Origin: a virus
Lineage: Duplodnaviria; Heunggongvirae; Uroviricota; Caudoviricetes
Virus record (IMG/VR): IMGVR_UViG_3300022555_000023
Span: 8,095 to 72,094 of that record
DNA: 64,000 nt
Reading direction: 5' to 3' (one strand)
Part shown: one piece after another, positions 5,650-20,756 of the stretch
Numbering within the stretch: the first letter of the stretch is position 1
How the letters are laid out: each line of letters opens with the position of its first letter
Translations under genes and position numbers: made by a program
The notes under the pieces: generated by a model
Database searches by the model: none
What the model saw: the letters and a program-made list of their open reading frames with translations, nothing else
Told to the model about the DNA's origin: nothing

Positions 5650-5695
5650 ATACCATTACTTTTCTCATTTTACAATGATCTAAGTATGATCAACC
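5650..5695 (-). promoter_or_regulatory. Candidate sigma-70-like promoter on the minus strand (TTGATC, about 15 nt, then TAAAAT) in the 76-bp gap upstream of 4864..5613
   Basis: This is an AT-rich island in otherwise GC-rich DNA. The hexamers were read by eye. The spacing is short. Confidence 0.25.
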
Positions 5696-8600
5696 CTTGG
5701 CATGCTGCTCAGCTTGGCGACGATAGAATCGTGCCCGACCGAAGTGATTACTCGCTCGGTTCGTGCTGCCGGCAGCTCGGTGCTTCACGGCAGAATCGGC
5801 AAACGCCTCAGATGCCCTGACTGCCAACGAGGCTTTCTCGCCCGGTGATGCCGTGGATGCTCGGTACGCCTTGCCCGCCTGCTGGGCCGTCTTCATGGCC
5901 GCGTCAGCACGCTCCTGCATGGCCGCGTAAGCTGGATGATCCTTGAGCTTGCCCTTGCGGTCTTCAAACTCGTGGTCGCTGGCCCCGTGCTCGTGCAGGT
6001 GCATGAAGGCCATCAGGGCTCGGGCCTGCTCGTCATGGTCTTCGGTTCCGGGCTGGTCTCCGACCGCCTCGGCCAGCTTGGCGGCCTTCATGTGCTTCAC
6101 CGCGGCATCGCCCAGGCGGTTGCCGATCCAGTGGTGCATGGAATCCTCGATGTCGGGCGTCAGGGCCTGCGGCGGTCCACCGTGGTGGTGGGCGTTCATG
6201 GCCTCGCCCGCAGCTATGCGGGCGGCGTAGTCGGCCTGCTCGTACTGGATAGCCTTCTTCGCGTCGGGCTCCTTGGGCTGGCCAGCACTGTACTGATTGC
6301 CGCGGAATTCATGCCCCGCAACGTCACCAAGCTCCAGCGGCACATCCAGACTCAACCGAGCGTCGCGGGGGCGGCGGGGAGGATGGGCTTCAGCCTGGGC
6401 CTTGGCCGCGTTATCTCGCAGGGCCTGCATCCTGCCGGCGGATGGCAGTCTGACCACGTGCTCGCCTGCTCCGCGTATGCGTCGCGATTCCTCCTCGTGT
6501 TCGCGAGCCGCAGAGATTGCTGCCTTCTGGGCGGCGTGGTGCATGCTGGCGAACTCCAGGCTGACGTCACTGCCGTCTTCTTCATGATGCTGGGCGGCGA
6601 GAACATGACCTTTAGCAGCCTTCTGGAACTGCTCGGCGGCCTTATCATGATCTGCCGCCGCACCGGAGGCAATGGCTTTCTTCGCCGTCACCAGGGCCAC
6701 GTTGTTATCGCTGGTCGACGCGATGCTCTTGGCTAGTGCGCCCTTCTGCACCGTACCGGCTAGGGGGAACAACTTATAGTTCCGGATGGCGGCGTTAGCC
6801 TTGGCAGATGATTCTGTTGCCGTGAACTGGTTGCCATGAAACGCGTGCCCTGCGACGTCACCAAGCTCGATAGGTAGATCATGACTCAGGCCCTTGATCT
6901 GGAAATCATTCTGACGGCCCTGCACGTTGGCATTGTGAGCATCCCCGTACTTGCGACCATGCTCGTCATCATCTTCCGGGTTCCAGCCGGCGGCAATGGC
7001 CTGCCTACGCATCTCATCTGCCTGGAGACTCATGCGTTTTCCCTGAGCCATCGAAGTATGACGTGTTGCCAGGTCTTCCAGCTTCTCAGGATCATTGGCA
7101 GCACTCTTCGCCACGGGCAAACCACGGTTCTCATACACGCCCCGCACGGTTCTGCCGACAGCCGCAGCCTCCCTCAGATGACCCGCAGCATCGAGATGAT
7201 GCTGTATGGCCTCGGGTGTATCCCCGGCAGCCAGAGCCCGTGATGCTGCTTGTCCAGCCTGCGTTGTATGGTACTTGTGCTCAACGTAGGCTGACATACT
7301 TACATCATTTGCCGCCGCGTGCGTATCATCATGAAGTTGCTGAGCTGCCGTGACTGCATTGCTTTGCGCTACCGCCGGCAATGCAGTCAAATCTGTCTGG
7401 GGACGGTCATGATACGGCTCGATCATATTCTTACCCACGCTTTGCTGCGGGTTTATGGGCAGTCCCGCATCGTGCGTGATCACAACAGCATTGCCGCGGT
7501 CTTCGACGACCCGGAAGTCACGAGCATCATCTCCGGGATCCTGCCACTCCGGTTTGATGGCTACCCGCTGGCCTGCCAGGTACTGGCCGTGCTGCTCGGC
7601 GGCTCCCTCCAGATACTTAGCCGTCTCAATATGCTCTCGTGCCGCCATTCTGTGCTGGCCGCGTTCAAGCTGGGTCAGCCTTGGTGCCTCAGAGGCATTC
7701 GCATGACCTTCGGCGGCGTCGCGACAACGTGATGCTGCGGCAGAATACAGGCCGTCCTTGACGAGACGCTTCGCATCATCTGAAGCGTCCACATGACGTT
7801 TGCCAGCCCGTGCGCCCTTCGTACTGTTGGTGGCGTCACTAGCCTTCTTCACAGCATCAACGGCTCCCTGGTGCGTGTACTGATTCCCGTGGAACTCGTG
7901 ACCTGCAACGTCACCAAGCTCAAGATCAATATTTAGGCCATGACCTAAATTTAGGTCATCGGCTAACGCGGTGTCAGTTTGGCTCATGGCCATATCCTCT
8001 GGTTTGGTACTTCCAGTCCAAGACTGGAGATGATGGTTCGCCAGTTCCTGTAGGGCCTCGCCGGCAGAGCGACAGGCGTCGGCGGCGTCTTCATGATATG
8101 AATCGTGACCATCGGAACTGTTCAGGTCAGCATCGTTGTGCAGGTCGGCTGTGTGATGATACTCGTTCGCAGCCCTCGCACAGGCTTTGAAAGCAGCGTC
8201 GTTCGACCGGCCCGAGGCTGACTCCTTCAGGGCGACCACGGCTGCCGTGTTGGCCGCACCGTGTGCGTCGCGTGCGGCTGCTCCGCGGCGACCGGGCGGT
8301 GAGCCAATGGCTTCCTTGCTGGCCTTGGCGGCGTAGTCTACGGCCTCCTGTGCGGTCGCGGCGAACCTCCCACGGGCGTCCCGTTCCTGGCCCTCGCCGT
8401 GGCTGGCCCGCAGATCTCCCCGCAGGGCGGTAGCTCCGTCGCCAACAGCGTCGTCCTTGGGCTGGCACGTCTGGCCGCAGGTCGGGCACTTACCATCCTG
8501 ACACGCACCCTTGCAGGCCGGGCAGGTGGCATCCTGGCTCAATGCGGCGTCCTTACCGCCACCGATGAGAACCGGGTGTCCGTTGATCGTGACCCAATGA

Positions 8601-9469
8601 GCATCGTCCGGAAGTTTGGATCCGGCGTTGTGCGTGCGGGCCTTCACGCGGTGCTGGGATGCTGCATCGGACAGGCCCGCCTTCTCGGCCTTGCGGGCTG
8701 CGTCATTCCGGTCTAGATAAGCGTTCCTGTGCGCCCGCCGCAGGTTGACCAGATTGCCGTGGGACGGATCCGCACGGTGGGCGTCCTCGGCGGATTTGAC
8801 CTGGGACGCACGACGGTCGGCCCGTGCAGATGCCGTGGCGTGCTTCTTCAGGTTGCCAGCCTTTTCCTTTTCGGCCTTCTTGGCAGCTTCGGCCTTCGCC
8901 TTATCATCTGCAACCTTTTTATCGGCGGCGGCCTTCTCCCTGGCCAGTCGTTGGCTGCGGGCCACGAAGCCCTCCTGTGGAGTCTGGGCGAGATTTCTGC
9001 GGCCCACGTTAAGAACGCGTCCAATAGCACGGTCGCCAAACACGTTCGTGTTCCAGGCCCCGCCCCGTCCGCGGTTGCGGCCCGCGTCGGTTCGGTCCTT
9101 GACGAACTTCTGCCAGTGCTTCTTGTCGGCTGCGGACATCATATCATGGGAGATCTCGTGATGCCCGCCGGGGTTGGCCTCCTGGTCATGCATCATATCG
9201 TATGCATGGTCGGCAGACTTGGCCGGGCCGTACAGGTTACCTTCTGATATTCCGGGCTGCTCGATGTAGTCGCTGTGGAAGTCGCTGCCCATCTCCGACC
9301 GCATGCGGTCGGCTTTATCTTCATCGGGATAAGGTGCGACGGCGCAGTACCATTTGCCCTTCTCGGGTTCAAAGACCACGCAGTCCCGCTGCACGGACAG
9401 AATCAGGGCGGGCATCTCAACGGGGATATCTAGGGCTGACATGATACATCCTTGGTTAGCGGCGGGCAT
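5690..9469 (-). CDS. Giant hypothetical protein of 1259 aa with three copies of the GNQY motif (coded near 7876-7930, 6822-6878 and 6291-6338). Rich in Ala, Lys, Glu, Asp and His, with coiled-coil-like stretches and a Cys cluster CPACKGACQDGKCPTCGQTC.
   Basis: This is the longest ORF in the window. The repeats are spaced roughly 300 aa apart. The composition resembles internal virion proteins, ejection proteins or tape-measure-like proteins. The function is unknown. Confidence 0.75.
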   Translation of the reverse strand: MPAANQGCIMSALDIPVEMPALILSVQRDCVVFEPEKGKWYCAVAPYPDEDKADRMRSEMGSDFHSDYIEQPGISEGNLYGPAKSADHAYDMMHDQEANPGGHHEISHDMMSAADKKHWQKFVKDRTDAGRNRGRGGAWNTNVFGDRAIGRVLNVGRRNLAQTPQEGFVARSQRLAREKAAADKKVADDKAKAEAAKKAEKEKAGNLKKHATASARADRRASQVKSAEDAHRADPSHGNLVNLRRAHRNAYLDRNDAARKAEKAGLSDAASQHRVKARTHNAGSKLPDDAHWVTINGHPVLIGGGKDAALSQDATCPACKGACQDGKCPTCGQTCQPKDDAVGDGATALRGDLRASHGEGQERDARGRFAATAQEAVDYAAKASKEAIGSPPGRRGAAARDAHGAANTAAVVALKESASGRSNDAAFKACARAANEYHHTADLHNDADLNSSDGHDSYHEDAADACRSAGEALQELANHHLQSWTGSTKPEDMAMSQTDTALADDLNLGHGLNIDLELGDVAGHEFHGNQYTHQGAVDAVKKASDATNSTKGARAGKRHVDASDDAKRLVKDGLYSAAASRCRDAAEGHANASEAPRLTQLERGQHRMAAREHIETAKYLEGAAEQHGQYLAGQRVAIKPEWQDPGDDARDFRVVEDRGNAVVITHDAGLPINPQQSVGKNMIEPYHDRPQTDLTALPAVAQSNAVTAAQQLHDDTHAAANDVSMSAYVEHKYHTTQAGQAASRALAAGDTPEAIQHHLDAAGHLREAAAVGRTVRGVYENRGLPVAKSAANDPEKLEDLATRHTSMAQGKRMSLQADEMRRQAIAAGWNPEDDDEHGRKYGDAHNANVQGRQNDFQIKGLSHDLPIELGDVAGHAFHGNQFTATESSAKANAAIRNYKLFPLAGTVQKGALAKSIASTSDNNVALVTAKKAIASGAAADHDKAAEQFQKAAKGHVLAAQHHEEDGSDVSLEFASMHHAAQKAAISAAREHEEESRRIRGAGEHVVRLPSAGRMQALRDNAAKAQAEAHPPRRPRDARLSLDVPLELGDVAGHEFRGNQYSAGQPKEPDAKKAIQYEQADYAARIAAGEAMNAHHHGGPPQALTPDIEDSMHHWIGNRLGDAAVKHMKAAKLAEAVGDQPGTEDHDEQARALMAFMHLHEHGASDHEFEDRKGKLKDHPAYAAMQERADAAMKTAQQAGKAYRASTASPGEKASLAVRASEAFADSAVKHRAAGSTNRASNHFGRARFYRRQAEQHAKG

Positions 9470-9735
9470 GCTTCATGCGGTTCATGGCATGCCAAACATC
9501 GCAGGCATAATGATGCTGCGATGAAATTTGTGGCTTCAGTGATGAACTTCTCACGACGAGACGCTTCGTCCTTCTCATAGCGGCGGAACTTCTCATACAG
9601 GTTCTCAGCCAGGCGGCGAGCAAACTCGTCGTGATTACGCATCGCATCTCGGGCCTCCGTATCACATAGCATAACGGATGAAGGCCGTTCAGGCGACGTT
9701 ATGGCTTGGGGCACGGCCCGCCCGCGGGGCAGCAC
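9430..9735 (-). CDS. Hypothetical protein of 101 aa. Overlaps the start of the giant gene, which probably begins at a downstream Met.
   Basis: ORF only. Confidence 0.3.
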   Translation of the reverse strand: MLPRGRAVPQAITSPERPSSVMLCDTEARDAMRNHDEFARRLAENLYEKFRRYEKDEASRREKFITEATNFIAASLCLRCLACHEPHEACPPLTKDVSCQP

Positions 9736-10139
9736 GCTTTCTCTAGCGGCACCTTGATGGCGTAAGTGCAGACCGACTGATCGAACTTGCCCAACTGCTT
9801 AGCCTTATCATTGGAGTAGCTGGCTTCACATGTTCCCGGATACTCGCCGTTGGGCACGCAGGCACATAGCTCGTGTTTGACCACGCAGCCGCAGGGACTG
9901 ACGCTCTTGATCATGTGCAACGTCTTGGGCTGCTCGGGATTGGGCTTGCCGTCTTTGAACGCCGGCGGCTTGGTCATGTAGTCGTAGACCGTGGCTTTGC
10001 ACGGCCCATTCTTATGCGGGCACTCGGCAGGCACGGGAGCCGAGATGATGACCAGGCCGGGGTGCGTGACGTCGGGACATTCAATCTCGAAGTCGGCCCC
10101 AATGAAAGATGCTGCCAGTAGTAACGCTGCGGTTAACAT
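9699..10139 (-). CDS. Secreted cysteine-rich protein of 146 aa. N-terminal signal peptide and 14 Cys.
   Basis: MLTAALLLAASFIGA is followed by many CxxC, CC and CGC pairs. No family is recognisable. Confidence 0.55.
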   Translation of the reverse strand: MLTAALLLAASFIGADFEIECPDVTHPGLVIISAPVPAECPHKNGPCKATVYDYMTKPPAFKDGKPNPEQPKTLHMIKSVSPCGCVVKHELCACVPNGEYPGTCEASYSNDKAKQLGKFDQSVCTYAIKVPLEKACCPAGGPCPKP

Positions 10140-10161
10140 GATCTGTCTCCTAGAGGTTAGT

Positions 10162-10329
10162 TACTCAGACCAATCTGAGATTTGAGCGTAACGCTTTGCG
10201 ATATCCAGTTCGATCTGGAGCCGCTTGTTTTGTGCCCCGCTGCTGCACGCCTCGCCGCACCAATGATTCGCGGCGGCCAGCAAGATGATATTCAGGCAGA
10301 CAGAAATAATTAGGGCTGTGAGTAATACG
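10162..10329 (-). CDS. Small membrane protein of 55 aa (one N-terminal transmembrane segment)
   Basis: Translated by hand as MIAVLLTALIISVCLNIILLAAANHW... A GGAGGA ribosome-binding site precedes it. It is below the 60-aa cutoff of the ORF track. Confidence 0.3.
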
Positions 10330-10333
10330 GCGA

Positions 10334-10579
10334 TCATATTTCCTCCGTGTTGGTTCGACAGGTCGCTTCCTCCATACGAATGATCATGTCGTAGATACGA
10401 CGTGTTGACTCGTTGCAGGTTGCATCTGGCCCGGCCCGGCTGCCTACTTCATCGGTCTGCAACCACGATTCGTCTACGGCGGAGACCTTCGTATCGACGT
10501 GCGTGCGAGTGTTGGTCTCACGTATCCGCCCCAGGGTATTTTCCATGCGAAGCAAACGCTGCTTCAGGCTGTGTATCAT
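10334..10579 (-). CDS. Hypothetical protein of 81 aa
   Basis: ORF whose stop abuts the ribosome-binding site of the next gene. Confidence 0.3.
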   Translation of the reverse strand: MIHSLKQRLLRMENTLGRIRETNTRTHVDTKVSAVDESWLQTDEVGSRAGPDATCNESTRRIYDMIIRMEEATCRTNTEEI

Positions 10580-10785
10580 ATTGAGCCCCCTGGAAATGCA
10601 GCCCGCCCAGTCATTGGGCTTAAACGTTGCTCGCCTCGGGTGCTTCTAGATTTAAATGTGGGGCGGGGGCCTGAATCTGTTGCCGGGTCGGAAAAGCGAG
10701 TGGCGGCTGTGTTTGGCGCGTCCGACCCGATTTTCAAAGCTGTAGTCCCCGTGACCCCCCGTCCATGAGAAGCATCACGTCTCCT

Positions 10786-10860
10786 GTCTACATAGATACT
10801 GTCTACATAGATACTGTCTACATAGATACTGTCTACATAGATACTGTCTACATCCGCCCC
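10786..10860. repeat. Tandem direct repeat of a 15-bp unit, CTGTCTACATAGATA, with four full copies and one partial copy
   Basis: Seen directly in the sequence as ctgtctacatagata repeated four times then ctgtctacatcc. It lies inside a 1.3-kb low-coding, lower-GC region between two minus-strand gene blocks. Confidence 0.9.
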
Positions 10861-11474: not shown

Positions 11475-11702
11475 TCATGGCTTGGCTACCTCATGTGCCG
11501 TAATAGTGATACTGCCGCCCGCGTCAACGACCGGCTTATCGTTGGCGACCAATTGGCGTAACAGGCCGATGGCACTTAGGCCGTGAAATTGGGCCTCTGT
11601 GTAACTGGCCTGTGTGATGATCATGTTGTCCTTGTCCTTGGCGACAACGTTGTAGGTCATGGTCATGATTTCGGCTCCTGTGATGTTGAAAAGTAAATAC
11701 AA
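11475..11702 (-). CDS. Hypothetical protein of 75 aa
   Basis: ORF at the distal end of the long minus-strand operon. Confidence 0.4.
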   Translation of the reverse strand: MYLLFNITGAEIMTMTYNVVAKDKDNMIITQASYTEAQFHGLSAIGLLRQLVANDKPVVDAGGSITITAHEVAKP

Positions 11703-12226
11703 TCGCTCTCGTGAAAATGCCTTGTTGTTCCGCCCTTGTAAATCTTGATTTCGGCCTGTGGGAATTCCTCGTGGAACATGGCCTCAGTTAATACGTGCAA
11801 ATGCAACTTGTCTGTGGGCCAGTTAATCGGCTCGAAGACTCGCAGCACTTTTGCACATGACTTCGCCTTCCTTAGTATCATTCTGGGATCGACTACATGC
11901 TGCAGCACGTTGAAGATCCACGCTTCATCGAAAATCGAGGGTGCCTCGTACTGCTCGAACGGCAGGGGGATGATCTCGACGTCGTCTCGTTGCAGCTTGT
12001 CATGATACGCGACCCACAGCGGATCAACGTTCACGGCTCTGCGAAACATCGGCAAGTTGCCGCATACCGGAAAGTTTCCACCGCCGATCTCCAGGATCGT
12101 TCTGTCTGCTACGTCCTCGGCTGTGATGGCGAGATACTGGAAAACCTCATAGTTTCGGCGACTAACATCAGCGTTCTGGCCGTGATGCTTCTCATGGCTC
12201 TGGGCCTCGATCCATTGTTTGTTCAT
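11663..12226 (-). CDS. Class I SAM-dependent methyltransferase of 187 aa
   Basis: Motif I ILEIGGGNF is followed by an acidic residue at the end of beta-2 (AVNVDP). Confidence 0.65.
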   Translation of the reverse strand: MNKQWIEAQSHEKHHGQNADVSRRNYEVFQYLAITAEDVADRTILEIGGGNFPVCGNLPMFRRAVNVDPLWVAYHDKLQRDDVEIIPLPFEQYEAPSIFDEAWIFNVLQHVVDPRMILRKAKSCAKVLRVFEPINWPTDKLHLHVLTEAMFHEEFPQAEIKIYKGGTTRHFHESDCIYFSTSQEPKS

Positions 12227-12471
12227 TTTGGCCCCTTCAAGCTCGTCATACTATCGTACAACAGGAAAGCGGTTCGTTGAAATTCTCGCACTGCCTTTCT
12301 CAACTTGGTCTGGGCCTCGCTGGATGCGGCTTTAATATCCATCATTTTTAAGGCCCTTGTGTCGGCCTCGATATTCGCGGCCAGATGAGCGGCCCTCAAA
12401 TTGGCTTGTGGATCCGGCTCGGGTTTTACGGGATTTTCGGGCAAGCTGGCTATGGTCAGTTTACGATCCAT
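12223..12471 (-). CDS. Hypothetical protein of 82 aa
   Basis: ORF with ATGA overlaps to both neighbours. Confidence 0.45.
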   Translation of the reverse strand: MDRKLTIASLPENPVKPEPDPQANLRAAHLAANIEADTRALKMMDIKAASSEAQTKLRKAVREFQRTAFLLYDSMTSLKGPK

Positions 12472-12475
12472 GATA

Positions 12476-13177
12476 TTACGCCAGCCTGTACTTCGTGAAC
12501 GTCCAGAAGGTCTCGAACAATGGGCAGTAGCGGCAGAACCTGTGAAACTCCGCCGTAGCCTCGTCCTGGAGAAGCCTGATGATTCTGGTTTCAGACTTCG
12601 ACTTGTGCTCGCCGGTTTGTGATATGACCCACTTGCCGCGGAAGGCCCGCGCTAGATTGAGCCTGTAATCCTCGGATGCATGAGTCGGCTCGACAGTCAT
12701 ATCATCAAAAACAACGTCGTACTTGTCGGCGTTCTCGTACAAGTATCGGAACGCGTCACCTACGTTCACGTGCAGCTTGTGGGCCTCGCCGTTAAGGCTT
12801 ATGGGAAAGTGCCGCCGGCAAACGTCGAGAACCTCGCTATCAATCTCACAGCATGTGACTCGTGCCACGTTGGGCAGGTCGCATAGCTCGGCTGCCAGGC
12901 TGCCGTCGCCTCCGCCCATGATCAAGACCCGCATGTGATCCATGTCGGGCAGCAGGTCGAGCATAGCCCGATCATACTCAGTATCACTGTTGGCCGACAT
13001 AACATCGTCGCCCACGATGAGGGTCTTGCCATGAGCCTCATGATCCATGACCCTAATGATCTGAAAAGGCGACTTGCGCTCTTCGAGAATTCCAGAGAAC
13101 TTGTACCTGACCGGCCCGACGCGGTCTTCACTGTAGATAGTCAGGGATAATCCGTCATCGTCCCACTGTGAGTTCAT
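12476..13177 (-). CDS. speE: Spermidine synthase-like polyamine aminopropyltransferase (PABS fold) of 233 aa
   Basis: Matches the PABS family: VLIMGGGDGSLAAEL against VLIIGGGDGGVLREV, KSPFQIIRVMD/HEAHGKTLIVGD against SPFQ..GKVLVLDG, and YDVVFDDMT against FDVIIVDS. Confidence 0.75.
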   Translation of the reverse strand: MNSQWDDDGLSLTIYSEDRVGPVRYKFSGILEERKSPFQIIRVMDHEAHGKTLIVGDDVMSANSDTEYDRAMLDLLPDMDHMRVLIMGGGDGSLAAELCDLPNVARVTCCEIDSEVLDVCRRHFPISLNGEAHKLHVNVGDAFRYLYENADKYDVVFDDMTVEPTHASEDYRLNLARAFRGKWVISQTGEHKSKSETRIIRLLQDEATAEFHRFCRYCPLFETFWTFTKYRLA

Positions 13178-13718
13178 TTGTCTTTCCTGTCAGGTCATCG
13201 TGAGGTGCATCCCGATACAGGAAGTTAACTTTCCTGAACTTGGGCTTGAATCGTTCGTCGATCATCTTCAGGACGACCGACTGGTCATACGGCTTGCACG
13301 AGAAGATATCGAAGTACATGCTGCCGATGCGGTTGTCGCCGTGCATGGAGATGTTACTGGTTGTGATAAGCTGTAACGCACTCCAGCCACCATCGGAATC
13401 CGTGCCGAAGTTATACAGGAACGGCTCGCCCACGGCGGTCATCTTGATGGCCGCGACCAGATCCTTGATGAACTTCTTGATCTGCTTGCCGTCGTCGATG
13501 TTCTTGTTGCAGCCGGAGCAGTCCACCATCATGTGAAAGCCCCAATGCTCCTTGCCGTCTTCGCCCGTGAACAGATCATTTCGGGGATCGCGTTTGAGGT
13601 CGACTACGGGCGACTCGGGAATCGCGGCGGCATCTACGGGAGCGTCGCCCTGGGCCAGTTTGAGGTCGGCCTCGCGACCAGGCCGCAGGGACAGGAAAGA
13701 ATTCAGTTCGTGGTTCAT
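13155..13718 (-). CDS. speD: S-adenosylmethionine decarboxylase proenzyme (pyruvoyl-dependent, SpeH/SpeD-like) of 187 aa
   Basis: HMMVDCSGCN (GxHxxxDxxGC) and LITTSNISMHGDN against the ESHISIHTWPE self-cleavage site region. It is adjacent to the aminopropyltransferase. Confidence 0.7.
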   Translation of the reverse strand: MNHELNSFLSLRPGREADLKLAQGDAPVDAAAIPESPVVDLKRDPRNDLFTGEDGKEHWGFHMMVDCSGCNKNIDDGKQIKKFIKDLVAAIKMTAVGEPFLYNFGTDSDGGWSALQLITTSNISMHGDNRIGSMYFDIFSCKPYDQSVVLKMIDERFKPKFRKVNFLYRDAPHDDLTGKTNELTVGR

Positions 13719-14008
13719 ACTATTGCGCCTCTCGTGATATGAAAATGAGCGTGGCCCGCACTCGATGCGTCGATGCTCGGCTCGATGGTTATCGTGTCAA
13801 AGTCCTCGTCGCCAATCAACGTCCACGTATGATCCTGTCGTGCCGGATGGCACAAGATGTACTGGTCGTCGATGGCTTCGCGTCCCTTATGATGAAACTG
13901 TACCGCCAACCTGATATTCCTGCAACAGGGACAGTCGAACGTCAGGCCCACAAGTACGGTCTCGCCGGCGAAGGTCCACCACCGCGGGTTCAGTTCTCTC
14001 AGCCTCAT
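13715..14008 (-). CDS. Hypothetical protein of 97 aa
   Basis: ORF with ATGA overlaps. Confidence 0.45.
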   Translation of the reverse strand: MRLRELNPRWWTFAGETVLVGLTFDCPCCRNIRLAVQFHHKGREAIDDQYILCHPARQDHTWTLIGDEDFDTITIEPSIDASSAGHAHFHITRGAIV

Positions 14009-19570: not shown

Positions 19571-19798
19571 TTAATTTGCCACCCATCCCAGGTTGTTGTG
19601 CCATACCACGTCGCCGCGCTCCCGCGGCGTCAGTTCACGATAGTAGTCTCGATGCGACCAGTGATAGTTACGATCCTCACCATCGTGGTGAACCCGCGGC
19701 TTCACATGCAGGAGGTTGCCGTCCACGTCACCGACAATGAACTCGCATCCCGCACGCGGGCCTTGTATCTGGATCACTATGTCACCCGCTTCGATCAT
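19571..19798 (-). CDS. Hypothetical protein of 75 aa
   Basis: ORF. Confidence 0.4.
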   Translation of the reverse strand: MIEAGDIVIQIQGPRAGCEFIVGDVDGNLLHVKPRVHHDGEDRNYHWSHRDYYRELTPRERGDVVWHNNLGWVAN

Positions 19799-20756
19799 TA
19801 TTTCGTACCTTCACGCAACGGTCCCACGACTCACCAAACACCCTCTCCCAGTCATTGCTGCTCACATCGAGGTAGCGGGCAACCCAGGATCGCACGTCAA
19901 GCCGGGTTTGCAGGCCCTCGCGGTGCTTGATCAGGGACAGGCCGGCGTCTGGCGTACCGGGCCGCAGGTCGTCGATGCTCAGGCGGGGCACGTCGGGCAG
20001 CAGTGGCCGCACCACGTCGCTGAAGGCCCGATAGTAGTCCGGAATGCCTGTGTCGCTAGGCAGGGCCAAACTGAACGCCAGGGGCGGGTATAGCTGGCCG
20101 TGCATTTCATCCTCCAGCCAGCAATGTACCTCCCGCACCTTGCCGCGAGCAAGCCTTCGCAGGGGCACGACATGCTCCTTCCACGTGAACTCGCCCGTGC
20201 CTTGCCAGATATCGAAGAATCCGCTGTCGTATGATCCCGGCTGGCAGTCCTTCAGGAACTGGAACAGGTCGGCTCGCACCACGCGTCGGTATTCCTTCCG
20301 CAGGGCCATGCGGCACAGATTCGGCCACACCAAGTCGATGATACGCTGGTCGTTCTCCACGACGGTGATGCCCTTGACCCGGCGATTGTAAGTCGCGTAT
20401 GTGGGAGCAACTCCCAAGCCCAGACCGCCGATCAGGGTATTGCCGTGCAGATACTGGACGGCGTCGTCCATCTGCCATAGCTCGCAGGGCACTGTGGACA
20501 TCCACGTGCCGCCCTCGTACTTCAGGGCGTTCGTGATGACGTCACTGGAGAACCGCAGCGAGACTGGTCGCTTTCCCATCAGAATCGCGTTACGCATCGA
20601 CACCAGATCGATGGGTACGCCGGCCTTGATGGTACTGATCACCACCTCGACGTCCTCGATCTTGCCGGGAGGTATCATCGGCATGCGTCGCAGCAGGCGG
20701 CACATGCGAGTGTTCGTATCCTCGGGCGTCTTGTTGCGTACCAGGGTTCGGCTCAT
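19782..20756 (-). CDS. Protein with a putative SAM-dependent methyltransferase or PABS-like fold, 324 aa
   Basis: A glycine-rich loop LIGGLGLGVAP is followed by ITVVENDQRIIDL and by YDSGFFDIW. This loosely resembles the post-I and motif IV regions of PABS and methyltransferase families. Confidence 0.45.
   Translation of the reverse strand: MSRTLVRNKTPEDTNTRMCRLLRRMPMIPPGKIEDVEVVISTIKAGVPIDLVSMRNAILMGKRPVSLRFSSDVITNALKYEGGTWMSTVPCELWQMDDAVQYLHGNTLIGGLGLGVAPTYATYNRRVKGITVVENDQRIIDLVWPNLCRMALRKEYRRVVRADLFQFLKDCQPGSYDSGFFDIWQGTGEFTWKEHVVPLRRLARGKVREVHCWLEDEMHGQLYPPLAFSLALPSDTGIPDYYRAFSDVVRPLLPDVPRLSIDDLRPGTPDAGLSLIKHREGLQTRLDVRSWVARYLDVSSNDWERVFGESWDRCVKVRNNDRSG

What the first reader, a model, noticed from the sequence alone, without database searches (positions are those of the whole stretch)
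11663..13718. Phage-encoded polyamine module: AdoMet decarboxylase, spermidine-synthase-like aminopropyltransferase and a SAM methyltransferase
Three adjacent genes form the module:
- 13155-13718 has the pyruvoyl AdoMetDC signatures HMMVDCSGCN and TSNISMHGDN.
- 12476-13177 matches the PABS family (VLIMGGGDGS, KSPFQII.V...GKTLIVGD, YDVVFDDM).
- 11663-12226 is a class I SAM methyltransferase.

Together they can make decarboxylated SAM and transfer aminopropyl groups. speD alone is a known auxiliary gene in cyanophages. A speD and speE pair plus a methyltransferase in a GC-rich phage is unusual.

Possible roles are boosting spermidine for DNA condensation during packaging, or aminopropylating or methylating a non-canonical acceptor. 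One speculative acceptor is a DNA base, by analogy with polyamine-modified thymine in some phages.

A second PABS- or methyltransferase-fold protein at 19782-20756 could be a further transferase of unknown specificity.
Basis: partly seen in the sequence, partly recalled or inferred. Interest (0 to 1): 0.75.

Follow-up and report, generated by a model that had tools for sequence, protein, structure and literature searches.

The report
Phage polyamine gene pair, atypical enzymes
A large uncultured phage carries a conserved pair of polyamine-synthesis genes, but the "AdoMet decarboxylase" looks more like an ornithine decarboxylase derived from that family. The spermidine-synthase-like enzyme is a compact, phage-only variant, and the neighbouring methyltransferase is not part of the unit.

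Summary
- 13155-13718: PF02675 (AdoMet_dc), E=1e-17.
- 12476-13177: PF01564 (Spermine_synth), E=3e-19. The AF2 model has pLDDT 94.6 and all top-50 Foldseek hits are aminopropyltransferases.
- 11663-12226: class-I methyltransferase fold.

The interpretation needs three corrections.
1. The decarboxylase keeps the pyruvoyl Ser121, His126 and Cys141. It lacks the Pro-Glu of the H-x-x-P-E motif that marks true AdoMetDCs and binds the AdoMet ribose. It sits in the atypical clade that holds the SpeD-derived ornithine decarboxylases. A clade member is coupled to an arginine dihydrolase. It is most likely an ornithine decarboxylase.
2. The SpeE homologue keeps every dcAdoMet-binding and catalytic residue. 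It belongs to a compact 215-240 aa family seen only on uncultured, mostly phage-like metagenome contigs, with a shortened gate loop, no C-terminal tail and altered acceptor-binding residues.
3. Only the SpeD-SpeE pair is conserved, in four lineages and two arrangements. The methyltransferase and the 324-aa ORF are unrelated accessories.

No DNA-hypermodification genes are present. A phage AdoMetDC+SpeE pair was shown experimentally in 2023, so this is a new variant of a known kind.

The parts
13155..13718 (-). SpeD-superfamily pyruvoyl decarboxylase proenzyme (187 aa). It has a ~55-aa N-terminal extension. The predicted self-cleavage/pyruvoyl Ser is Ser121, with His126 and Cys141. Atypical positions are Thr120, Gly127, Asn129 and Arg130. 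Most likely an ornithine decarboxylase of the SpeDC lineage.
   Evidence: Pfam PF02675 E=9.8e-18. Alignment to experimental references. Residue numbers. Bootstrap placement. NCBIfam AdoMetDC equivalog score 35.3 against a 75.65 cutoff.
12476..13177 (-). Compact SpeE-family aminopropyltransferase (233 aa). It overlaps the decarboxylase gene by 23 nt. The dcAdoMet and catalytic residues are intact: Q39, Y68, GGGD88-91, E111, D141, D159, Q187. The acceptor side is remodelled: E163 after a 1-aa insertion, F221, a 5-aa shorter gate loop and no C-terminal tail.
   Evidence: Pfam PF01564 E=3.3e-19. PDB sequence hits 1.5e-17 and profile hits 3e-31. AF2 pLDDT 94.6. Foldseek top 50 are all aminopropyltransferases, TM 0.71-0.80. 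Family alignment.
12223..12471 (-). 82-aa ORF of unknown function directly downstream of SpeE. It is conserved in the closest related phages only, so this is synteny and not proven function.
   Evidence: tblastn 43-49 % identity at the same position in L002 and L044-47. No Pfam or PHROG hit.
11663..12226 (-). Adjacent class-I SAM methyltransferase-fold protein (187 aa). It is NOT a conserved part of the module and is listed only because the finding included it.
   Evidence: AF2 plus Foldseek. Absent from related SpeD/SpeE loci. Homologues lie beside epimerase and glycosyltransferase genes.
13715..14008 (-). 97-aa DUF6527 ORF upstream whose stop overlaps the SpeD start (ATGA). It is present only in this phage lineage and is not part of the conserved pair.
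   Evidence: Pfam PF20137 E=1.7e-6. No counterpart in L001, L002, L041 or L044-47. Junction sequence.

Best explanation
A two-gene, translationally coupled polyamine module of a large (contigs up to 192 kb) uncultured phage.

Step 1 (inferred): the 187-aa SpeD-superfamily proenzyme self-cleaves at Thr120/Ser121 to make a pyruvoyl cofactor. It decarboxylates L-ornithine, not AdoMet, to give putrescine.

Step 2 (inferred from conserved residues and fold): the compact SpeE-family enzyme transfers an aminopropyl group from decarboxylated AdoMet to that diamine, giving spermidine. The dcAdoMet would come from the host, or from a phage AdoMetDC outside this window.

The expected benefit is extra spermidine for phage translation, replication or packaging. 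The neighbouring methyltransferase, DUF6527 ORF and 324-aa ORF are unrelated accessory genes.
For: Family and fold:
- Both proteins are assigned securely.

The pair is a unit:
- SpeD is followed directly by SpeE in the window, in L001/L044-47 (76 % / 57 % identity) and in L002 (63 % / 60 %).
- The two genes are convergent in L041 (56 % / 43 %).

The decarboxylase is not a typical AdoMetDC:
- It has no hit to canonical phage AdoMetDCs, which number 137 records.
- It is 50 % identical to the ~117-aa group carrying the Gln/Thr/Phe/Tyr pattern given as diagnostic of SpeD-derived ODCs. It is only 18-20 % identical to canonical enzymes.
- Bootstrap support: HG+HF clade 78; the wider clade that also takes in the second-copy group and phiN3 88.
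- The Pro that is 'completely conserved in bona fide AdoMetDCs' is Asn129.
- The two AdoMet-binding glutamates are Thr120 and Arg130.
- The clade member P0159 overlaps an arginine dihydrolase homologue (ArgZ/AgrE, 2.4e-18). That gives Arg to Orn to putrescine.
- In about 12 IMG/VR phage contigs, an ODC-type copy sits between a canonical AdoMetDC and SpeE. An ODC-type gene next to SpeE is therefore an established arrangement.

The SpeE homologue uses dcAdoMet:
- GGGD Asp91, Glu111, Asp141 and catalytic Asp159 are invariant.
- A natural fusion joins a canonical AdoMetDC to this compact SpeE type (P0019).
Against: - Everywhere else in my sample, the SpeD homologue linked or fused to SpeE is a canonical AdoMetDC. 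This covers about 60 bacterial loci, giant-virus fusions and the first copies in phage clusters. Guilt by association therefore favours AdoMetDC.
- Sinorhizobium phage phiN3, in the same broad clade and also lacking Pro-Glu, is an experimentally proven AdoMetDC.
- The window protein has Gly127 where I place the ODC-diagnostic Phe.
- My mapping of the four diagnostic residues, and my equation of the ~117-aa group with the assayed ODCs, are inferred from text, size and motif. I did not have the published sequences.
- No AdoMetDC was found in the 64-kb window, so the module would depend on the host for dcAdoMet.
- The acceptor pocket of the SpeE homologue differs from putrescine-specific enzymes. 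Asp199, called 'invariant' in SpdS, is Glu after an insertion here and is variable across the family.
Confidence: 0.5

Rival explanations
1. The pair is a self-sufficient AdoMetDC + spermidine synthase module. The atypical decarboxylase has kept or regained AdoMet decarboxylase activity despite lacking the Pro-Glu motif. It would supply dcAdoMet directly to the adjacent aminopropyltransferase, which uses host putrescine.
For: - The only experimentally shown phage two-enzyme module is AdoMetDC+SpdSyn.
- SpeE-linked SpeD homologues are otherwise always AdoMetDCs.
- The linkage is strict within this clade (4 of 5 lineages), whereas the sister ~117-aa group is solitary.
- phiN3 shows that AdoMetDC activity exists in this atypical clade without Pro-Glu.
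- The loss of the ODC-type Phe (Gly127) could mark a change of substrate.
Against: - Both AdoMet-contacting glutamates are missing (Thr120, Arg130), with no conserved acidic replacement across the clade: HGDNR, HGANI, HGDDE. phiN3 keeps an Asp at or near both positions.
- The score of 35 bits is well below the 75.65-bit equivalog cutoff.
- The clade member P0159 is coupled to an arginine dihydrolase.
Confidence: 0.28
2. Both enzymes have non-canonical substrates. The decarboxylase would act on another basic amino acid (arginine, lysine or 2,4-diaminobutyrate). The compact aminopropyltransferase would then aminopropylate the resulting amine (agmatine, cadaverine or 1,3-diaminopropane) or a longer polyamine, producing something other than spermidine.
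For: - SpeD homologues have switched to arginine several times, as in HTVC201P.
- MaAM05 has a speH/speH/speE/speB (agmatinase) cluster, which suggests an aminopropylagmatine route in a phage.
- Acceptor-side residues of the compact SpeE are altered, and the position of SpdS-invariant Asp199 varies across the family.
- The Gly127 substitution lies in the loop after the catalytic His.
Against: - No agmatinase or ureohydrolase, nor any other polyamine gene, is present in the window.
- The nearest characterised lineage acts on ornithine.
- Trp5, Tyr68, Asp159 and Gln187 of the putrescine site are retained.
Confidence: 0.14
3. The aminopropyltransferase, alone or with the methyltransferase, modifies a macromolecule such as phage DNA bases or a protein, rather than a free polyamine.
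For: Only the general precedent of polyamine-decorated thymine in some phages (my background knowledge) and the remodelled acceptor side.
Against: - No hydroxymethylase, kinase or transferase genes for base hypermodification are in the window.
- The methyltransferase is not co-conserved.
- The enzyme keeps the closed small-molecule SpeE architecture, and all fold neighbours are free-polyamine enzymes.
Confidence: 0.03

Closest known systems
AdoMetDC + spermidine synthase gene pair of an uncultured freshwater Caudovirales phage (Li et al., PNAS 2023, PMC9992855)
   Same: A phage-encoded, clustered SpeD-family and SpeE-family gene pair that forms a spermidine-synthesis module. Both enzyme families are the same.
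   Different: In that phage the SpeD is a bona fide class-1b AdoMetDC and the SpdSyn is related to gamma-proteobacterial enzymes, both shown by complementation. Here the SpeD homologue is in the atypical ODC-type clade without Pro-Glu. The SpeE is a compact family with no close relative in 185,579 reference genomes.
SpeDC: pyruvoyl-dependent ornithine decarboxylases derived from AdoMetDC (Li et al., PNAS 2023; JBC 2023, PMC10407285)
   Same: The Ser/His/Cys catalytic triad is retained, with Gln116, Thr120 and Tyr135 matching three of the four diagnostic residues as I map them. It is 50 % identical to the ~117-aa phage group, and the phylogenetic placement agrees.
   Different: It has Gly127 instead of the diagnostic Phe. 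It has N-terminal (~55 aa) and C-terminal extensions, giving 187 aa against 117-122. It is strictly linked to a SpeE gene, whereas the sister ~117-aa group sampled here stands alone and Li et al. used absence of SpeE as one search criterion for such homologues.
Canonical spermidine synthase (SpeE; human 2O05, P. falciparum 2PSS, E. coli 3O4F)
   Same: An N-terminal beta domain plus Rossmann fold. The GGGD, Glu(ribose), Asp(adenine), catalytic Asp, Gln and Tyr residues are conserved.
   Different: It is 233 aa against about 280-300. It lacks the ~45-aa C-terminal tail and the gate loop is 5 residues shorter. His103 is replaced by Asp69, Asp199 by Glu163 with an insertion, and Tyr264 by Phe221. 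It scores far below the NCBIfam equivalog cutoffs, 77-99 bits against 250-260.
Three-gene AdoMetDC / ODC-type SpeD / SpeE clusters in IMG/VR phage contigs, and the Microcystis phage MaAM05 speH-speH-speE-speB cluster
   Same: An atypical SpeD paralogue lies immediately upstream of SpeE in a phage genome.
   Different: Those clusters also encode a canonical H-T-W-P-E AdoMetDC and a full-length SpeE. The window cluster has neither.

Membership tests
Aminopropyltransferase / PABS (SpeE, PF01564) | Significant match to the family profile | tested here: met
   PF01564 scores 69.6 bits against a GA of 22.9. There are 26 PDB aminopropyltransferases at E<=1e-6, and the profile search gives 3e-31.
Aminopropyltransferase / PABS (SpeE, PF01564) | Two-domain fold: an N-terminal beta-sheet domain plus a Rossmann domain | tested here: met
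   AF2 pLDDT 94.6. The Foldseek top 50 are all spermidine, spermine or thermospermine synthases, TM 0.71-0.80 over the full length.
Aminopropyltransferase / PABS (SpeE, PF01564) | GGGD Asp that binds the aminopropyl amine of dcAdoMet (Pf Asp127), plus the ribose Glu and adenine Asp | tested here: met
   G88-G89-G90-D91 are invariant. E111 and D141 are present. Their roles follow PMC4356361.
Aminopropyltransferase / PABS (SpeE, PF01564) | Catalytic gate-loop Asp (Pf Asp196 / human Asp173) | tested here: met
   D159 is invariant in all 18 aligned sequences and aligns to Asp196.
Putrescine-specific spermidine synthase | Second gate-loop Asp that binds the distal amine (Pf Asp199, 'invariant in SpdS'), with a full-length gate loop | tested here: not met
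   The position holds Glu163 after a 1-residue insertion. Across the family it is E, D, Q, I, S or V. The loop is 5 residues shorter.
Putrescine-specific spermidine synthase | Score above the curated equivalog thresholds (TIGR00417, PRK00811) | tested here: not met
   77.5 against 249.55 bits, and 99 against 260 bits.
Putrescine-specific spermidine synthase | Converts putrescine plus dcAdoMet to spermidine | not testable with these tools
   This needs delta-speE complementation or an in vitro assay.
Bona fide class-1b AdoMet decarboxylase (SpeD/SpeH) | Pyruvoyl-forming Ser, catalytic His and Cys (T. maritima S63, H68, C83) | tested here: met
   Ser121, His126 and Cys141 align with these residues.
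Bona fide class-1b AdoMet decarboxylase (SpeD/SpeH) | The Pro of H-x-x-P-E, 'completely conserved in bona fide AdoMetDCs' (PMC10407285) | tested here: not met
   Asn129 occupies this position. The whole clade lacks Pro.
Bona fide class-1b AdoMet decarboxylase (SpeD/SpeH) | Two AdoMet-binding glutamates: one before the pyruvoyl Ser (adenine) and one at the end of the His strand (ribose hydroxyls) | tested here: not met
   These positions hold Thr120 and Arg130. Their roles follow PMC1282579, with the alignment. Caveat: some SpeE-fused viral enzymes also have Thr before Ser but keep Pro-Glu.
Bona fide class-1b AdoMet decarboxylase (SpeD/SpeH) | Score above the NCBIfam equivalog cutoff (TIGR03330) | tested here: not met
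   35.3 against 75.65 bits. The experimentally proven phiN3 enzyme also fails this test (28.9 bits), so it is not decisive.
SpeDC (SpeD-derived pyruvoyl ornithine decarboxylase) | Four diagnostic residues: Gln, Thr, Phe, Tyr | tested here: inconclusive
   Gln116, Thr120 and Tyr135 are present. The position I assign to Phe is Gly127. The positions are inferred from the paper's text and the ~117-aa group, not from the published figure.
SpeDC (SpeD-derived pyruvoyl ornithine decarboxylase) | Membership of the single SpeDC clade | tested here: inconclusive
   The window clade is sister to the ~117-aa HF group (bootstrap 78). Together with the second-copy group and phiN3 it separates from canonical AdoMetDCs (bootstrap 88). 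The assayed reference sequences themselves were not available to me.
SpeDC (SpeD-derived pyruvoyl ornithine decarboxylase) | Decarboxylates L-ornithine and not AdoMet | not testable with these tools
   The only support is indirect: clade member P0159 overlaps an arginine dihydrolase gene.
Class-I SAM-dependent methyltransferase (ORF 11663-12226) | Rossmann methyltransferase fold with a glycine-rich motif I | tested here: met
   Motif 'LEIGGG'. AF2 pLDDT 79. Foldseek matches NodS, CmoB and alkaloid N-methyltransferases at E~1e-7. The Pfam hit is below the gathering score.

The most novel reading that the evidence does not exclude
The 'HG' decarboxylase clade and the compact SpeE family form a co-evolved, phage-specific enzyme pair with new specificities. 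One possibility is an AdoMet decarboxylase re-invented inside the ornithine-decarboxylase lineage without either AdoMet-binding glutamate. The other is a pair that makes a non-spermidine polyamine from a different amino acid and amine acceptor.
Probability: 0.2. Interest if true: 0.65.

Novelty: new variant of a known kind. Interest (0 to 1): 0.45.

Why it matters
Spermidine is needed for phage replication, and viral polyamine genes are an active topic. So far only one phage was known to encode two steps of the pathway (AdoMetDC plus SpdSyn).

This locus suggests a different two-step solution: a cofactor-independent ornithine decarboxylase plus a minimal aminopropyltransferase. It also defines a compact SpeE family that profile-based annotation thresholds miss.

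It is a warning as well. "speD" auxiliary genes in phage genomes cannot be read as AdoMetDC from the Pfam hit alone.

Both open questions (the substrate of the decarboxylase and the acceptor of the transferase) can be settled with published E. coli delta-speD and delta-speE complementation and LC-MS assays.

Tried and rejected
- Megablast of the region against 50,697 phage records found no match.
- A search for the compact SpeE in 185,579 reference genomes found only ordinary SpeEs at <=30 % identity over long stretches.
- The IMG/VR scan found no close relative, only <=32 % identity.
- I tried to link the ~117-aa group to the assayed ODC accessions. The cluster look-up returned no accessions, and the papers' supplements hold no sequences.
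- I looked for a second, canonical AdoMetDC, an agmatinase or arginase, or DNA-hypermodification genes in the window. None was found.
- I considered the 324-aa ORF as a second PABS enzyme and rejected it: no GGGD motif, no SpeE-HMM hit and no significant PDB hit.
- I considered the methyltransferase as a module member and rejected it on synteny.
- Model coordinates are not exposed to scripts, so pocket geometry and docking could not be examined.
- The rest of the >=192-kb phage genome could not be scanned for an AdoMetDC.
Full report
**The observation**

Every quoted peptide motif is present. They lie in a tightly packed co-directional array:

| ORF | Coordinates |
|---|---|
| DUF6527 ORF | 13715-14008 |
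| SpeD-like | 13155-13718 |
| SpeE-like | 12476-13177 |
| 82-aa ORF | 12223-12471 |
| 187-aa ORF | 11663-12226 |

Starts and stops overlap or nearly touch (ATGA overlaps, and a 23-nt SpeD/SpeE overlap). In my own ORF selection, which favoured the minus strand, about 103 of 109 ORFs of at least 70 aa are on the minus strand.

Window gene content includes a gp32-like SSB, RecA/UvsX, SbcCD, a 5'-3' exonuclease, a sigma factor and a Dam methylase. There are no tRNAs, and GC is 53-63 %. This fits the replication/recombination region of a large phage. The identical SpeD protein occurs on 12 metagenome contigs of up to 192.5 kb. There is no nucleotide match in 50,697 deposited phage genomes.

**The aminopropyltransferase (12476-13177)**

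The family assignment is secure:
- Pfam PF01564 scores 69.6 bits against a cutoff of 22.9.
- PDB sequence searches hit only aminopropyltransferases, at 1.5e-17 with the single sequence and 3e-31 with the family profile.
- The AlphaFold model built on a family alignment is very confident (pLDDT 94.6, pTM 0.91).
- All 50 best Foldseek matches in the PDB are spermine, spermidine or thermospermine synthases, with TM 0.71-0.80 over the full length.

An exhaustive HMMER search of 1.84 billion cluster representatives shows the protein belongs to a small family of compact (about 215-240 aa) proteins that match it end to end. Ordinary 280-300-aa SpeEs match only residues ~25-165.

In the family alignment the following are invariant: G50, G88-G89-G90-D91, D113, D154, D159, Q187 and W225. 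I mapped these onto P. falciparum SpdS through the profile alignment, using the residue roles given in PMC4356361.

| PfSpdS residue | Window residue | Status |
|---|---|---|
| Gln72 | Q39 | conserved |
| Tyr102 | Y68 | conserved |
| Asp127 | D91 | conserved |
| Glu147 | E111 | conserved |
| Asp178 | D141 | conserved |
| Asp196 (catalytic) | D159 | conserved |
| Gln229 | Q187 | conserved |
| His103 | D69 | changed |
| Asp199 (distal amine, 'invariant in SpdS') | E163 after a one-residue insertion | changed; variable in the family |
| Tyr264 | F221 | changed |

The dcAdoMet and catalytic half of the site is therefore fully conserved. The acceptor half differs. In addition, the gate loop is five residues shorter and the ~45-aa C-terminal tail is missing. 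The protein scores far below the NCBIfam equivalog thresholds.

One family relative (P0019) is a natural fusion of a canonical AdoMetDC (…SHIAFHTYPE…) to this compact SpeE type. This argues that the family uses dcAdoMet.

Close relatives are absent from IMG/VR and from 185,579 reference genomes. They occur only on metagenome contigs.

**The decarboxylase (13155-13718)**

Pfam PF02675 is clearly met (64.9 bits), and the pyruvoyl-forming Ser121, His126 and Cys141 align with T. maritima S63, H68 and C83. Several lines argue it is not a typical AdoMetDC.

- *Search behaviour.* The protein does not hit the 137 canonical phage AdoMetDC records. Its only hits among cultured phages are Sinorhizobium phiN3-type phages, pelagiphages and MaAM05 speH_1.
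- *Literature.* Li et al. showed that many phage 'SpeD' proteins are really pyruvoyl ornithine or arginine decarboxylases. They also report that bona fide AdoMetDCs have a completely conserved Pro, and that the ODC group is diagnosed by Gln, Thr, Phe and Tyr.
- *Motif comparison.* The central region reads as follows:

| Sequence | Central region |
|---|---|
| Window | QLITT-S-NISM-H-GDNR…MYFDIFSC |
| Canonical enzymes | LAE-S-HISI-H-TWPE…VDVYTC |
| ~117-aa metagenomic group (50 % identical) | QLITT-S-NICA-H-FMEL…AYFDIFSC |

  
- *AdoMet-binding residues.* The Pro is Asn129. The two glutamates that bind the adenine and the ribose hydroxyls of AdoMet are conserved in bacterial and archaeal enzymes (PMC1282579). 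Here they are Thr120 and Arg130.
- *Phylogeny.* A bootstrapped NJ tree groups the window protein with P0154, L002, P0156 and P0159 (the 'HG' clade, support 83). This clade is sister to the ~117-aa 'HF' group (78). Together with the second-copy group and phiN3 it is well separated from canonical AdoMetDCs (88).

**Genomic context**

- The SpeD-SpeE pair recurs in three further diverged lineages: head-to-tail in L001/L044-47 and L002, and convergent in L041 on a 327-kb contig. It is therefore a selected unit.
- The fifth member of the HG clade, P0159 in a T4-like phage, is not next to SpeE. It overlaps a gene whose best matches are the cyanobacterial arginine dihydrolases ArgZ/AgrE (PDB 2.4e-18; NCBIfam Arg_dihydro 1.7e-26). 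An Arg-to-Orn enzyme coupled to a SpeD homologue is most simply read as Arg to Orn to putrescine, which makes that homologue an ODC.
- About a dozen IMG/VR phage contigs carry a three-gene cluster of canonical AdoMetDC, ODC-type SpeD and full-length SpeE. MaAM05 carries speH_2 (canonical), speH_1 (atypical), speE and speB. An ODC-type paralogue directly upstream of SpeE is thus an established layout, and the window version looks like that layout without the AdoMetDC.
- Against this, every other SpeE-linked or SpeE-fused SpeD in my sample keeps H-x-x-P-E (~60 bacterial loci and giant-virus fusions). In addition, phiN3 in the same broad clade is an experimentally proven AdoMetDC without Pro-Glu.
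- The sister HF group is solitary in phage contigs.
- The window holds no second SpeD, no agmatinase or arginase and no other polyamine gene.

**Weighing the readings**

| Reading | Probability |
|---|---|
| ODC-type decarboxylase plus compact spermidine-synthase-like enzyme (ornithine to putrescine to spermidine, with dcAdoMet from the host or from elsewhere in the genome) | about 0.5 |
| AdoMetDC plus SpeE | about 0.28 |
| Other substrates | about 0.14 |
| Macromolecule modification | about 0.03 |

That the unit is a polyamine-biosynthesis module of some kind I hold at about 0.9.

**The other genes**

- *187-aa ORF.* It has a class-I methyltransferase fold (AF2 pLDDT 79; Foldseek matches to NodS and CmoB). 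It has no counterpart in any related SpeD/SpeE locus, even where at least 7 kb downstream is available. Its 46 %-identical homologues sit among epimerase and glycosyltransferase genes. It is not part of the module.
- *324-aa ORF (19782-20756).* It has a GGLGLG loop without the GGGD Asp. It is missed by the SpeE HMM and has no significant PDB hit. It is at most a generic Rossmann methyltransferase-like protein.
- *DNA modification.* Nothing in the window resembles DNA-base hypermodification machinery.

**Novelty**

A phage AdoMetDC+SpdSyn pair was demonstrated in 2023, when it was the only phage known with two polyamine enzymes. Phage speE was also reported as an ocean AMG in 2024. Viral SpeD/SpeE modules are fairly common in IMG/VR.

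The new elements here are:
- the pairing of an ODC-lineage decarboxylase (with extensions and a changed post-His loop) with SpeE;
- the absence of a canonical AdoMetDC from the cluster;
- the compact, phage-restricted SpeE family with a remodelled acceptor site.

This is a new variant of a known kind, of moderate interest, and it is directly testable with published complementation assays.

Noticed in passing
window 10784-10853: A perfect 15-bp tandem repeat (CTGTCTACATAGATA, 4.7 copies). It lies in a lower-GC stretch between gene blocks and produces the spurious 'VDSIY' repeat in two overlapping ORFs. It may be a regulatory or iteron-like element.
   Followed up: partly
window 5690-9469 (minus strand): A 1259-aa Ala/Lys/His-rich ORF with three copies of a '(L)ELGDVAGHEF(H/R)GNQ(Y/F)' motif. 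I did not scan it on its own, and the whole-window Pfam survey turned up nothing that obviously belongs to it.
   Followed up: no
window 13715-14008 (minus strand): A 97-aa Cys-rich DUF6527 ORF (PF20137, labelled 'BubE' in the precomputed table). Its stop overlaps the SpeD start (ATGA). It is present only in this phage lineage and not in relatives that share the SpeD/SpeE pair.
   Followed up: partly
L012, L014, L016, L018-L020, L022-L025, L027, L031, L032 (IMG/VR phage contigs), about positions 9200-10800 in the 20-kb loci: Three-gene clusters: a canonical AdoMetDC (ESHISIHTWPE), a second ODC-type SpeD paralogue (QLIETS…GHF…AYLDIFSC) and a full-length SpeE. This would be a complete ornithine-to-spermidine module in phages. 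The 2023 survey listed only one phage with two polyamine enzymes.
   Followed up: partly
L042 6001-7289 and L043 (T4-like phage contigs): A SpeD-type decarboxylase (P0159) overlaps by 4 nt a homologue of the cyanobacterial arginine dihydrolase ArgZ/AgrE. This is a putative phage arginine-to-ornithine-to-putrescine pair.
   Followed up: partly
L003-L011, L015, L028-L030 (mostly giant-virus MAG contigs; a few are plain IMG/VR UViGs); protein P0019: Single ORFs of about 410-500 aa that fuse a canonical AdoMetDC domain to a SpeE domain. P0019 (347 aa) fuses a canonical AdoMetDC to the compact SpeE type.
   Followed up: partly
L036 (Microcystis phage MaAM05, MW495066.1 246315-249093): A four-gene cluster speH_2 (canonical), speH_1 (atypical), speE and speB (agmatinase). 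It suggests an agmatine/aminopropylagmatine route to spermidine in a cultured cyanophage.
   Followed up: no
window 19782-20756 (minus strand): A 324-aa Rossmann-like ORF conserved at 64-71 % over its C-terminal half in the related phage lineage. Its only hit among deposited phages is a Bacteroides phage gene annotated 'entry and fusion IMV protein Cop-L5R', which looks like a mis-annotation.
   Followed up: partly
L041 9170-10447: An IS605 OrfB / Cas12f-like TnpB gene lies 2 kb from the SpeD/SpeE pair on the 327-kb phage-like contig.
   Followed up: no
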